A stretch of DNA of 64,000 nucleotides from a plasmid: the NCBI RefSeq assembly GCF_053078305.1, contig NZ_CP166875.1. One strand, written 5' to 3'. How positions within the stretch are numbered: the first letter of the stretch is position 1; every line of letters starts with the position of its first letter. Shown piece by piece: positions 42,001-45,000 of this stretch. The position numbers were made by a program.

Positions 42001-45000
42001 GGTTTCATATATACTTATCCCGTATTCTGTGAGGCCCCCATTATCTTTCTCTGATTCCGCCAAGTTTCGTGGAAAGATGATGGGGGTTTTCCTTTATGGC
42101 CTTCTGAAACTTTTTTCAGCCTTCCGGCCCCGGCAAACTGCCGTCGTTTCTGCCATACATCCTGAATGCCTTATGGCGCATTCTGCCGTTTTCTGGCTTT
42201 CCGGACCGCGAGGATCCCAAAAGCCACTGAATAACGATCCGCAATATACCCCTTTTCCACCGCTTTGAAAAGCCGACACGATTTCTCTGATTTACCAGGC
42301 CTCTCATTAACCACCTAAAAAACGTCGTTTTTTTGAACTATGTCAAAAAAATAGACAATTCCACAAACGATCTTTTATGCTGTGTTTTTCATCATTTTTA
42401 GTAGAAGAGATCGCCTAAAATTTTTAAACGATCTAATCCTCCAGACACCGCACACAAATCAGCATAATATGCTGCTTTATCAAATATAACGATCTATTTA
42501 ACTGCTTATCTTCACTCTTGCCACAGATACATCCTTATGTAATATATTTGCCAGCCATTAATCCTGTTTGCAGGAGTTGTCGGTTTTCGCCCGCCTCGAA
42601 ACCGTCCACAAGGCTTACAAGAGTGCGTAAATCATGTGCCTGTCAGAACTGCAGGCCGGGCTGAACGAGGGTCAGCCGCTGTTTCCGACACATGCTTTAT
42701 GTATTCGCCGTTCACAACAACATCGAAGCCCCTCTGCGGGGATCGATTTTCGCGGAGCGTTCCGGATTTTGAATATCAGTGAATTACATCAACGCAACTG
42801 GTATCTGGCTCAGTACATCCCTGCCGGCAAAAACCGCGAACATCTCTTTTCCTGGCTTTCCGAACAACACGTCCTTCCCTGGACACCCCTGATACTGAAA
42901 AAGGTCCGCCGCACGGATAAAGTCTGTGGTTACCGTCGACATATACACGCCGTGTTTCCCGGTTACTTTTTCCTGAAAGCAGACCCCGAACGCCACAGCT
43001 TCACTCACCTTCGCCGTCACAGTGCCTTTCTGGACTTCGTGAAAATGGCCGGTGAAATCAAAACCGTCAGGGAGGATATCGTTCAGTCTTTGATGAAAGT
43101 GTACCCGGATCCTGCGCTCAATCCGGCAGCCAGGGAGGAGCTGGATGCTGCCTCCACCCTCTGGCTGACAAAAGCGCGTTACCAGTACCTCCTCCGGCTT
43201 GATGCACAGCCTCTGCCGGAGTCGAGGATCGCCCTGCTCCTGCACCTGGTATCTGATGACGGAGCGTTGACATGAAAATTGCTGTCTTAATTTGACGACT
43301 TTTCCCGGCCTTTATGGCCGGGATTTTTTTCCCTTCTGTTTCCACAATGCCCGGCACCGGTGACACCTGAGGGTGTACGGAGAGCGGCTGTCGGGCATTT
43401 TTTCAGGACGCCTTTATGACCATTCTATCCCAGGAAAACCCTGTCATTCTGTTACTGGAGAATATGCTCGAAGCACTCTCCACCGCCCCGGACAACATAA
43501 ACAACGAACGGCGTCGCCGGCGTTACCTGCTGAACTGGCTTGACACTGCCCGTCAGATGCGCGAGTTCAGAGGAATGGCTGAAGAGTTCACTACCCTGCG
43601 AAAACTGCTGGCCACCAATTCAGACATACCGGTAGCAAACACCCTGAAATCACTGCTGGAAAGTGGCAATAACGCAGCATTATACGACCTGTACCGCTTC
43701 CGCTCGGCTCTTTCCGCGTGCAGAAGTCTGGGATGGCAGATTGGCACGTGCGCATGGAACGACCAGCTGCTGAGTGAGACACTTTCCCGTGCGCAAACAG
43801 GTAAACGTCATATCCTGCAGCTGAACAGTACCAGAGACACCTTTTCCACCACGGGCAGAATGCTCAGACCGGTGGCATTTTCATTAATTCATCCGGCATC
43901 CCTCGAATCTTCAGAAGTGGAAGAGATATTCCGGGATGAAGGTTTTATACTCGCGCACGGACGCGAATGCAGCCTGAACGGCAGCGGCAGAAACATGCTG
44001 TCACGCATTCTTCATGTGGGGCATTCAGGTTTACCGAAAGCCGAATGGGGCATAGATCACAGCAATCACCTGTTACACTGAAATACCGGGACAGCCACAA
44101 CGGCAGCCACTCTCCGCTGACTTTTTTTCGCAAATCGCGGTTTGCTGATGTGGATGTCCCATTTTTTATTATCCGTCCTCTCCGGTTGTCATAAAGCGCA
44201 TTCCGGCGTGAGGCTTCTGTTGTTATCATCCCCTCCTGCAGACATCCCCTTGTCTTCTGATGACTGACGATATGCTTCTTCTGACAATTAAAGAAGCGGA
44301 AGCTTCACGCCATAATGTTGTTTGACTGACCTGCCACAGGAGGAAAAATGACACTGACGTTACTTACCGCGTATAACGCACCCTATCTGGCAGCCCTGAC
44401 TTTTGTTCTGCTTACTGGTATCGCTGAACTTATCGCCCTGCTCTGCGGACACTCCCTCTCTTCAGCTATGGATACACCTGATTTACCGGAGGGGCTGACA
44501 GGAGAGGCGCTGGACTGGCTGAACATCGGACGGATCCCCCTGCTGATCGTCCTCTGTATACTGGCAGGTTTTTTTGGTATATCCGGCATTCTCCTGCAGG
44601 GTCTTATTATTCATCTGCTGCAGGCTCCTGCCCCGAACATTCTCCTTGCACCACTTTGCCTGCTGCTGACATGTCCTCTCGTACACCGCACCGGCAGACT
44701 GATTGCCCCCTGGTTACCCCGTGATGAAACAACGGCGCTCACCGAGGAGGCATTCATCGGGTGTATGGCCACCATCACCGGTTATCACGCAGTGGCGGGT
44801 TCCCCCTGTGAAGGTCGCTTCACAGACCGCTTTGGGCAGGTTCATTACCTGTTGCTGGAGCCGGAGGCCGGGAAAGAATTCAGACGAGGAGACAAAGTGA
44901 TTATTGTCTGCCGTCTTTCCGGTTCCCGCTGGCTGGGCGAACTGAATCCCTGGCCGGATGTTCTTTAATCCCGACATATGTAAGCGTCAACGGAGCACCG

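What the first reader, a model, noticed from the sequence alone, without database searches (positions are those of the whole stretch)
42634..44081. NusG/RfaH-like paralog and a 221-aa unknown gene at the head of the thin-pilus region
The 213-aa ORF has an NGN-like N-terminal region, and specialised NusG paralogs typically drive long horizontally acquired operons. It is followed by a terminator hairpin and a 221-aa protein with no recognisable motif. These sit upstream of the NfeD/flotillin pair and the pilL-pilV operon, suggesting a dedicated regulatory module.
Basis: inference. Interest (0 to 1): 0.4.

Follow-up and report, generated by a model that had tools for sequence, protein, structure and literature searches.

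The report
Plasmid transfer regulators TraB and TraC
These two genes are the already-known TraB/TraC regulator pair of IncI-type conjugative plasmids: an RfaH-like transcription elongation factor and an essential partner protein of unknown fold. The genes are ordinary, but how they switch on the pilus and transfer genes is still unknown.

Summary
Both ORFs are real, and the NusG call is correct. The first ORF matches the Pfam NGN domain just above threshold and aligns along its whole length with RfaH.

The 213-aa ORF is too long. Orthologues in eight lineages all start at the same codon, here TTG at 42769, giving 168 aa. The extra 45 codons are a conserved non-coding leader.

The pair is the IncK/B/O/Z orthologue of R64 TraB and TraC (65% and 37% identity). 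About 2,100 plasmids carry it, always as repA-(traA)-traB-traC-pil. In the literature TraB and TraC are positive regulators needed for thin-pilus expression and conjugation. The finding is therefore already known.

New details, none tested experimentally:
- An intrinsic terminator follows traB in every lineage, and no promoter-like site precedes traC.
- A long hairpin, conserved in structure but not in sequence, lies between that terminator and traC.
- The leader holds an invariant element, GGATC-N6/7-GCGRAGC, resembling ops (GCGGTAGC) minus one T. I propose it as the TraB loading site.
- TraC has a confident model (pLDDT 84) with no structural relative, and it co-occurs with TraB almost one-to-one.

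Most likely mechanism: TraB is a self-loading processive antiterminator that reads through into traC and pil. A link to ehx is unlikely.

The parts
42518..42545 (+). Candidate sigma-70 promoter for traB (TTGCCA-16-TAATAT), at the 3' edge of an AT-rich, GATC-rich region (42360-42500). No TSS data.
   Evidence: Consensus scan only, 9 of 12 matches. GATC cluster.
42600..42768 (+). Conserved non-coding traB leader, wrongly included in the 213-aa ORF. Nucleotide blocks ACAAGAG, CTGTCAGAACTGCAG, CTGTTTC and TATTCG are conserved across lineages whose proteins are only 48-65% identical.
   Evidence: DNA alignments. The same conserved DNA is read in different frames in different lineages and the ORF extension is not conserved. 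RNAalifold finds no consensus RNA structure. No Rfam family matches.
42740..42761 (+). Candidate TraB loading (ops-like) element, GGATCGATTTTCGCGGAGCGTT. Its core GCGGAGC (42752-42758) equals the ops core GCGGTAGC minus the T.
   Evidence: GGATC-N6/7-GCG[R or AG]AGC is present in all 11 loci (8 lineages). Spacing inside the element is fixed, but its distance to the start codon varies from 4 to 21 nt, so it is not just a Shine-Dalgarno site. It is unique in the window and absent from the tra region of a near-identical plasmid. Its function is inferred, not shown.
42769..43275 (+). traB: 168-aa RfaH-like NusG paralog with a TTG start. NGN domain at residues 10-108, followed by a degenerate RfaH-like C-terminal domain without the KOW glycines.
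   Evidence: It is 65% identical to IncI1 TraB.
43303..43330 (+). T1: intrinsic terminator directly after traB (TCCCGGCC-TTTAT-GGCCGGGA followed by T7).
   Evidence: Terminator scan. A terminator occupies the same position in IncI1, Enterobacter/Citrobacter and Salmonella lineages, with different stem sequences.
43346..43403 (+). HP2: a long imperfect hairpin (14 pairs) followed by a T-run, 12 nt before the traC ATG. It is the short version of a 118-133-nt structured domain found in all other lineages. Role unknown.
   Evidence: The arms differ completely between lineages. MFE z-scores are -2.9 to -5.8 in other lineages and -1.3 here.
43416..44081 (+). traC: 221-aa cytoplasmic protein and obligate partner of traB. 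The model shows an N-terminal five-helix bundle (9-104) and a C-terminal alpha/beta domain (108-211).
   Evidence: Homologues are annotated 'conjugal transfer protein TraC'. Only 30 representatives exist among 1.84 billion proteins. AF2 pLDDT is 83.7. There is no convincing structural relative. The Pfam DUF2913 match is below threshold.
44348..44968 (+). It normally lies 27 bp from the flotillin gene.
   Evidence: Pfam YqiJ_N and YqiJ_OB. Synteny in CP057341.
44980..47511 (-). ISEc23 (IS66 family) insertion between the regulatory genes and the flotillin/pil genes, with an 8-bp target duplication CGACATAT.
47536..49230 (+). Flotillin-family gene, followed by the pilI...pilV thin-pilus genes (50162 onward). 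These are the presumed targets of the module.

Best explanation
This is the traB-traC regulatory module of an I-complex (IncK/B/O/Z-type) conjugative plasmid.

TraB (42769-43275, 168 aa) is an RfaH-like NusG paralog. I propose that it loads onto RNA polymerase while the polymerase transcribes traB's own leader. The proposed loading site is the non-template-strand element GGATC-N7-GCGGAGC (42740-42761), a one-base-shorter relative of ops.

The modified, pause- and termination-resistant polymerase would then read through terminator T1 (43303-43330) and the HP2 hairpin (43346-43403) into traC, and on into the co-directional pil/tra genes. That gives a positive-feedback switch for conjugation.

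TraC (221 aa, new fold) is the obligate second component. It is either a cofactor of TraB-modified polymerase or a separate activator.

Shown here: gene identities, orthology, the true start, conservation of the terminator and hairpin, conservation of the leader element, and TraB-TraC co-occurrence. From the literature: the requirement of TraB and TraC for pil transcription and transfer. Inferred: the loading site, the readthrough and the role of TraC.
For: Identity:
- NGN domain above the Pfam cutoff in all lineages.
- hhalign to E. coli RfaH gives 91.7% probability over residues 9-165 against 2-150, including the CTD motif ESRIALLLHLV against EARSMLLLNLI.
- The best PDB sequence hits are RfaH-named chains.
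- 65% identity to IncI1 TraB and 37% to IncI1 TraC.
- The repA-(traA)-traB-traC-pil order is conserved in E. coli, Salmonella, Enterobacter, Citrobacter, Yersinia, Pectobacterium and Photorhabdus.
- The PK-repZ replicon signature lies next door.

Function of orthologues: PMC5013300, PMC11880322, PMC4288162 and a bioRxiv 2026 preprint.

Readthrough logic:
- T1 is conserved in position but has different stems in at least four lineages.
- No sigma-70-like promoter lies between traB and traC in any of the four loci scanned.
- The HP2 T-run ends 12 nt before the traC ATG.
- All genes from traB to trbC point the same way.

Loading site:
- The element is invariant in 11 loci and positioned independently of the start codon.
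- There is one sense copy only.
- Precedent: IncX PrfaH binds an ops-like non-template hairpin in its own 5'UTR, at -42 to -25 (PMC11880322).
- At the positions aligned to RfaH's ops-contacting residues H20, N70, T72 and R73, TraB has W29, R82, H84 and S85, invariant in the six aligned TraB sequences. This fits an altered DNA specificity.

Pairing: TraC-type genes occur in 2,073 plasmids and TraB-type in 2,133, with matching genus counts.
Against: - No TSS, transcript or binding data exist for this plasmid.
- The element overlaps the GGAG of the likely ribosome-binding region in some lineages, so part of its conservation could be translational.
- DNA folding energies of the mini-hairpin are no better than shuffled sequence.
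- RfaH itself is only a modest antiterminator at intrinsic terminators (general knowledge).
- HP2 lacks a T-run in several lineages, so it may not be a terminator at all.
- A weak or non-sigma-70 promoter for traC cannot be excluded by a consensus scan.
- No second copy of the element precedes the distal tra operons, although TraB and TraC are reported to affect them.
- In this window a 2.5-kb IS separates traBC from the flotillin and pil genes.
Confidence: 0.6

Rival explanations
1. TraB is RfaH-like but works mainly by excluding NusG/Rho and counteracting H-NS silencing across the AT-rich pil/tra array. T1 is a genuine stop that ends the traB transcript. traC and pil have their own, unrecognised promoters. 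The conserved leader element is a translational, Dam (GATC) or other regulator-binding site rather than a loading site.
For: RfaH's main documented roles are anti-Rho and counter-silencing (bioRxiv 10.64898/2026.02.23.707533). The element contains an invariant GATC and, in some lineages, the Shine-Dalgarno GGAG. GATC clusters lie upstream. Mini-hairpin energies are unremarkable. No other copies of the element occur in the tra region.
Against: No promoter-like site lies in the traB-traC spacer in four lineages. The HP2 T-run abuts the traC ribosome-binding site. The element's distance to the start codon varies from 4 to 21 nt while its internal spacing is fixed. An RfaH-type factor still needs some loading site, and no canonical ops is present.
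Confidence: 0.25
2. TraC is the primary regulator, acting as a DNA-binding activator or anti-repressor at tra/pil promoters. TraB only ensures that traC is expressed, so TraB's effect on transfer is indirect.
Against: No HTH or other DNA-binding domain is detected. Structural matches are weak and generic. The near one-to-one co-occurrence with TraB equally fits a physical partnership.
Confidence: 0.15
3. The 213-aa ORF from ATG 42634 is the real protein, a NusG paralog with a 45-residue N-terminal extension.
For: The frame is open from 42634 and one GenBank submitter annotates it that way.
Against: The extension is absent or out of frame in all other lineages. The conserved DNA there is read in different frames in different lineages. 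RfaH aligns from residue 10 of the 168-aa form. RefSeq uses the TTG start. All 3 codon changes against L002 in the extension are non-synonymous, compared with 2 synonymous and 2 non-synonymous in traB (small numbers).
Confidence: 0.03

Closest known systems
TraB and TraC of IncI1 plasmid R64 (traABCD region; Kim, Funayama & Komano 1993, J Bacteriol 175:5035, recalled and cited via PMC11880322, PMC5013300 and PMC4288162) and TraB of pESI
   Same: Orthologous proteins: 65% (TraB) and 37% (TraC) identity over full length. Same gene order next to the RepZ/RepA replicon and ahead of the pil genes. Same terminator after traB.
   Different: This IncK/B/O/Z lineage has no traA. HP2 is shortened from about 125 nt to 54 nt. 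traB uses TTG rather than GTG. yqiJ-like and flotillin genes, and here ISEc23, lie between traC and pilI.
E. coli RfaH and its ops element (GGCGGTAGCGTG)
   Same: NGN domain, FPGY motif, colinear C-terminal domain with the LLL motif, and similar size (168 aa against 162). The candidate DNA element shares GCGG-AGCGT with ops.
   Different: Scores far below the RfaH equivalog cutoffs (38.5 against 124 and 144.5 bits). The residues aligned to RfaH's ops-contacting positions differ (H20>W, N70>R, T72>H, R73>S). The KOW glycines are lost and there is no KOW hit. No canonical ops lies in the traB-pil region. The protein is self-encoded at the head of its presumed target.
PrfaH/ActX of IncX plasmids (PMC11880322; bioRxiv 10.64898/2026.02.23.707533)
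   Same: Plasmid-borne RfaH paralog, first gene of the transfer region and essential for conjugation. Its recognition site is a non-template hairpin in its own 5'UTR. The best PDB sequence hit of TraB is a 157-aa RfaH-named chain, 9ik0, E 1e-7 over the NGN only. That chain is probably this protein, but I could not confirm it.
   Different: Only about 27-31% identity, restricted to the NGN domain. The C-terminal domain is different. No TraC-like partner is described, and no terminator is reported between the regulator and the next gene.
UpxY/UpxZ of Bacteroides and LoaP of Bacillus (other NusG paralog systems)
   Same: UpxY is a locus-specific NusG paralog encoded first in its operon and paired with a second small protein (abstracts). 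LoaP reads through intrinsic terminators inside its operons.
   Different: UpxZ is an inhibitor of non-cognate UpxY proteins, whereas TraC is a positive factor. The LoaP model scores 22 bits against a cutoff of 125. There is no sequence relationship with TraC.

Membership tests
NusG/Spt5 superfamily | NGN domain (Pfam PF02357) at or above the gathering score | tested here: met
   23.4-24.2 bits against a cutoff of 22.2, covering model positions 2-92 of 93. Five other TraB lineages score 22.3-31 bits.
NusG/Spt5 superfamily | C-terminal KOW domain | tested here: inconclusive
   No PF00467 hit at E<=10 in six lineages. RfaH itself scores only 15.5 bits, below threshold. The C-terminal 68 aa alone give no real PDB hit. 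hhalign does align the CTD colinearly with the RfaH CTD, but the KOW glycines are replaced.
RfaH (TIGR01955 / NF006534 equivalogs) | Score above the curated equivalog cutoff | tested here: not met
   38.5 bits against cutoffs of 144.5 and 124. TraB is an RfaH-like paralog, not RfaH.
RfaH | Canonical ops (GGCGGTAGnnTG) in the leader of the regulated operon | tested here: not met
   No match with 2 or fewer mismatches on the + strand between 42134 and 44506. Only the T-less variant TCGCGGAGCGTT is present, at 42750-42761.
RfaH | Autoinhibited alpha-hairpin CTD that refolds into a beta-barrel | not testable with these tools
   This needs a TraB structure model or NMR. Only the sequence alignment is available.
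IncI-complex TraB/TraC regulatory pair | Full-length orthology of both proteins to IncI1 TraB and TraC | tested here: met
   TraB is 65% identical over 97% of its length. TraC is 37% identical over 94% to proteins annotated 'conjugal transfer protein TraC'.
IncI-complex TraB/TraC regulatory pair | Synteny: I-complex replicon - (traA) - traB - traC - pil genes | tested here: met
   PK-repZ at 166.7 bits and an IncFII-family RepA lie immediately upstream. The pil genes lie downstream. Related plasmids are typed IncK2/Z, MPF_I.
IncI-complex TraB/TraC regulatory pair | Both genes required for pilus and transfer-gene expression and for conjugation | not testable with these tools
   Known only from orthologues: pESI, R64 and pESBL.
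LoaP | NF033641 score above cutoff | tested here: not met
   22 bits against a cutoff of 125.
DUF2913 (PF11140), for TraC | Score above the gathering cutoff (23 bits) | tested here: not met
   The window protein gives no hit. 2 of 14 family members hit weakly (best E 8.5e-5). The Yersinia homologue scores 20.2 bits, colinear over profile positions 17-157 of 207. A remote relationship is possible.
Intrinsic (Rho-independent) terminator | G+C-rich hairpin directly followed by a T-run | tested here: met
   T1: 8-pair stem, 7 G-C pairs, followed by T7. It is conserved in position in other lineages.

The most novel reading that the evidence does not exclude
TraB and TraC form a two-protein processive antitermination system not described before. 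TraB is an RfaH-type NGN factor whose KOW domain has degenerated and may be locked in a helical form. It loads at a one-base-shorter ops variant in its own leader. It needs TraC, a new-fold, DUF2913-like protein found only with TraB, to be activated or to replace the functions normally supplied by KOW. The structure-conserved HP2 RNA between T1 and traC would be part of the switch.
Probability: 0.2. Interest if true: 0.6.

Novelty: already known. Interest (0 to 1): 0.3.

Why it matters
I-complex plasmids (IncI1, IncK, IncB/O, IncZ) are major carriers of ESBL/AmpC resistance genes and, as here, of EHEC virulence genes. Their transfer depends on TraB and TraC. Reviews of NusG paralogs say that the functions of plasmid-encoded paralogs still await experimental assessment (PMC7593976). 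I found no paper in the library searched that defines a TraB recognition site or a biochemical role for TraC.

The concrete predictions made here turn that open question into a few simple experiments:
- true start at 42769;
- a single candidate loading element;
- a conserved terminator and a structured spacer ahead of traC;
- TraC as an obligate partner with a new fold.

As a discovery of genes, however, the finding is ordinary. Both genes are annotated in hundreds of sequenced plasmids.

Tried and rejected
- Canonical ops search (GGCGGTAGNNTG, up to 2 mismatches): 54 hits against 41 expected, none relevant near traB. The only biologically sensible hit is upstream of ehxC.
- Extra copies of the leader element in the window and in 50 kb of tra genes from a near-identical plasmid: none in the sense orientation.
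- Rfam, at gathering and permissive thresholds: nothing in the traB leader or the spacer except generic terminator look-alikes.
- Consensus RNA structure of the leader: none (-0.18 kcal/mol). A small covarying hairpin that I read by eye turned out to be out of register between lineages, so I dropped it.
- DNA folding of the mini-hairpin: not distinguishable from shuffled sequence.
- TraC single-sequence AF2 model: unusable at pLDDT 43. This used one of the two structure jobs, so TraB itself could not be modelled.
- TraC sequence searches: PDB none. The profile search reached only the same small family. No informative literature on DUF2913.
- traA homologue in the window: absent.
- Kim et al. 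1993 could not be read. Statements about R64 rest on later papers that cite it and on my recollection.
- A partial resemblance between the 5' half of the element (CGGGGATC) and the PrfaH site (TCGGGGTCATCCGAG, reconstructed) is not shared by all TraB lineages and was not used.
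Full report
**What is at the coordinates.** The window has two + strand ORFs at exactly the stated positions: 42634-43275 (213 aa, ATG) and 43416-44081 (221 aa, ATG).
- The first ORF matches the Pfam NusG N-terminal (NGN) domain at 23.4 bits (cutoff 22.2). The match spans nearly the whole model (positions 2-92 of 93) but covers residues 55-153 of the ORF.
- NCBIfam's two RfaH models align to residues 54-207 at 38.5 bits, far below their equivalog cutoffs. LoaP and NusG score lower still.
- The second ORF has no Pfam or NCBIfam match.
- A textbook intrinsic terminator follows the first ORF: an 8-pair stem with 7 G-C pairs at 43303-43323, followed by T7.

The factual part of the finding therefore holds.

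**The first ORF is over-extended.**
- I collected orthologous loci from IncK2/Z, IncI1, IncI-gamma, and Salmonella, Enterobacter, Citrobacter, Yersinia, Pectobacterium and Photorhabdus plasmids.
- The protein begins at the same 'MNI(E/S)' codon in all but one: ATG in six loci (MKIE in L012), GTG in IncI1, TTG here at 42769. L009 starts two codons earlier. Upstream of it the frame closes after 16-22 codons in the other lineages and the peptide is not conserved.
- RefSeq uses this start, giving 168 aa. One GenBank submitter uses the long form.
- RfaH residue 3 aligns with residue 10 of the 168-aa protein.
- The 135 nt wrongly included in the ORF are conserved at the nucleotide level, and the same conserved DNA is read in different frames in different lineages. 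They are a non-coding leader.

**What the genes are.**
- The 2.1-kb region occurs in 551 plasmids at 90% identity or more. They are almost all from E. coli and Shigella, mostly conjugative. The related records examined in detail are typed IncK2/Z with MPF_I mating-pair formation. There the genes are labelled 'NusG family protein' and 'traC' / 'IncI1 plasmid conjugative transfer protein TraC'.
- At the protein level, TraB-type genes occur in about 2,130 plasmids and TraC-type genes in about 2,070. Genus counts match almost exactly: Shigella 107 and 107, Enterobacter 37 and 37, Citrobacter 27 and 27, Yersinia 17 and 17, and so on.
- IncI1 TraB is 65% identical and IncI1 TraC 37% identical to the window proteins.
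- The neighbourhood is the I-complex backbone. An IncFII-family RepA with the PK-repZ pseudoknot (166.7 bits) lies immediately upstream on the other strand. Downstream lie a YqiJ-family gene, a flotillin gene and then pilI-pilV.

These are the IncK/B/O/Z orthologues of R64 TraB and TraC.

**What is known about them.**
- In pESI, deleting traB lowered pilV/pilS/pilT transcription about 4-fold and made conjugation undetectable. Complementation restored expression (PMC5013300).
- R64 TraB is required for transfer and is recognised as a homologue of the IncX RfaH paralog PrfaH (PMC11880322).
[quoted passage not shown] In a transposon screen of an IncI1 ESBL plasmid, traC and traB insertions were depleted after transfer (PMC4288162).
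- A 2026 preprint summarises IncI1 transfer expression as mostly driven by TraB and TraC.
- The primary R64 paper (Kim et al. 1993) is not in the library. I recall it as showing that both genes are needed for transfer and thin-pilus formation.
- Reviews list TraB among specialised NusG paralogs but say their functions await experimental assessment (PMC7593976; PMC6391919).

The mechanism is not.

**TraB anatomy.**
- A profile of six TraB lineages aligns to E. coli RfaH at 91.7% probability over residues 9-165 against 2-150. It scores 79 bits on the NGN model, and the alignment ranges agree with the PDB hits to 2oug and 8pen.
- The FPGY(F/L)F motif is conserved.
- At the positions aligned to RfaH's ops-contacting residues (K10, R16, H20, T68, T72, R73; listed in PMC11880322), TraB keeps R23 (=R16). 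It has W29 for H20, H84 for T72 and S85 for R73, and R82 for the neighbouring N70. All five are invariant in the six aligned TraB sequences.
- The C-terminal domain aligns colinearly with RfaH's (ESRIALLLHLV against EARSMLLLNLI) but has lost the KOW glycines. It gives no KOW hit, though RfaH itself is only sub-threshold on that model. Alone it finds nothing meaningful in the PDB.
Whether this domain can form the KOW barrel is open.

**A conserved spacer between traB and traC.**
- Every lineage has an intrinsic terminator shortly after the traB stop, built from different stem sequences: CCCGGCC/GGCCGGG, CCCCCG/CGGGGG and GCCCCT/AGGGGC.
- No sigma-70-like promoter was found between traB and traC in the four loci scanned.
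- After the terminator, all ten loci have a long-range stem of 14-24 pairs. It closes a 118-133-nt domain, shortened to 52-54 nt in the window's lineage (43346-43399). Arm sequences are unrelated between lineages, and MFE z-scores are -2.9 to -5.8 outside the window lineage.
- In the window this hairpin (HP2) is followed by a T-run ending 12 nt before the traC ATG. Several other lineages have no T-run there, so HP2 is not necessarily a terminator. It matches no Rfam family.

**A candidate loading site.**
- The last 30 nt of the leader contain GGATC-N6/7-GCG[R or AG]AGC in all 11 loci. In the window this is GGATCGATTTTCGCGGAGCGTT at 42740-42761.
- Spacing inside the element is fixed, while its distance to the start codon varies from 4 to 21 nt. 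It is therefore more than a ribosome-binding site.
- The core GCGGAGCGT is the ops core GCGGTAGCGT without the T. The Yersinia variant GCGAGAGC restores the ops length.
- The element occurs once in the window and not at all in the 50 kb of tra genes of a near-identical plasmid. Canonical ops is absent from the region.
- The precedent is direct. PrfaH of IncX plasmids binds a non-template-strand hairpin at -42 to -25 of its own start codon, and point mutations there abolish conjugation (PMC11880322).
- Against over-reading: predicted hairpin energies are no better than shuffled sequence, there is no consensus RNA fold, and the element includes a GATC and sometimes the GGAG.

**TraC.**
- It belongs to a very small family: 30 representatives among 1.84 billion proteins, all about 210-235 aa, with no fusions. 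A profile search reached only Enterobacterales plasmid homologues.
- With a 14-sequence alignment AF2 gave a confident model (pLDDT 83.7, pTM 0.61). It shows a five-helix N-terminal bundle (9-104) and a C-terminal alpha/beta domain (108-211).
- A few family members hit Pfam DUF2913 below threshold, colinearly. RefSeq names the Yersinia homologue DUF2913. Nothing is known about that family.
- TraC is therefore a genetically known but structurally and biochemically orphan protein that occurs only with TraB.

**Most likely mechanism.** This is inference, at about 0.5-0.6 confidence for the mechanistic steps.
1. Transcription starts in the AT-rich region near 42518-42545.
2. TraB loads on RNA polymerase at the leader element.
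3. The modified polymerase reads through T1 and HP2 into traC, and on into the co-directional pil/tra genes.
4. This creates a positive feedback loop. TraC acts as cofactor or second activator.

Rivals are given separately: an RfaH-like anti-Rho/anti-H-NS role with an independent traC promoter, and TraC as the primary activator with TraB upstream of it.

The proposed ehx link is unlikely. ehxCABD lies at 3106-10310 on the - strand. It has its own canonical ops core about 20 nt upstream of ehxC, the expected host RfaH site. TraB's reading residues differ from RfaH's.

**Verdict.** The genes are real, ordinary and already known, with a corrected start. Interest lies only in the unresolved mechanism, for which this analysis gives specific, testable sequence features.

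Noticed in passing
window 44980-47511: A 2,532-bp ISEc23 (IS66 family; tnpA/B/C on the - strand) with an 8-bp target duplication CGACATAT. It is inserted in the 27-bp gap between the yqiJ-like and flotillin genes, between traBC and the pil genes. Only 5 E. coli genome records cover 80% or more of this 10-kb stretch. It could be polar on pil expression.
   Followed up: partly
window 3106-10339 (- strand): The enterohemolysin operon ehxCABD (EhxA 2314 bits) with a canonical ops core GCGGTAGC (TTGCGGTAGCTTT) at 10331-10338, about 20 nt upstream of the ehxC ORF. This is the expected host-RfaH site. It sits on the same plasmid as the T-less variant GCGGAGC in the traB leader.
   Followed up: partly
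window 43346-43403; L003 5576-5700; L004 3042-3169; L006 5584-5701; L010 3846-3971; L011 2850-2982; L012 2850-2970: A long-range hairpin domain between the traB terminator and traC, conserved in structure but not in sequence. It spans about 125 nt in most lineages and 54 nt here. It matches no Rfam family and its role is unknown.
   Followed up: partly
window 42369-42494: A cluster of GATC sites (AACGATCT three times and AGAGATCG once) in the AT-rich region upstream of traB. GATC is enriched (5-8 sites per 480 nt) only in lineages lacking traA (window, L006, L012). This may reflect Dam/SeqA-linked control or a regulator-binding repeat.
   Followed up: partly
window 42618-42713: Other nucleotide blocks in the traB leader are conserved across distant lineages: ACAAGAG, CTGTCAGAACTGCAG, CTGTTTC and TATTCG. 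They are unexplained.
   Followed up: no
window 41944-42095: The PK-repZ regulatory pseudoknot (166.7 bits, - strand) ahead of repA, with a sub-threshold CopA-like antisense RNA match on the + strand. This is the I-complex replication control region and confirms the plasmid type.
   Followed up: no
window 17466-17571: A ColE1-type RNAI (RF00106, 59.8 bits, above the gathering score). It suggests a small ColE1-like replicon or its remnant integrated in this plasmid.
   Followed up: no
window 11347-15708 (- strand): A 1,452-aa ORF with trimeric-autotransporter adhesin repeats (EmaA/Ata/YadA-type partial matches), next to the ehx operon.
   Followed up: no
L001 703-1344 vs L002 838-1344: Public annotations disagree on the traB start: 213 aa in a GenBank submission and 168 aa in RefSeq. 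L012's called TraB is likewise over-extended by 23 codons, and L006's annotated traC start looks truncated.
   Followed up: yes
literature (PMC6391919, PMC9630627): Two reviews place the NusG-like 'TraB' on the F plasmid. A related paper (PMC7593976) cites an F traB-traC paper for plasmid-encoded NusG paralogs. The NusG-like TraB is the IncI/R64 protein. F TraB and TraC are VirB10- and VirB4-like and unrelated.
   Followed up: partly
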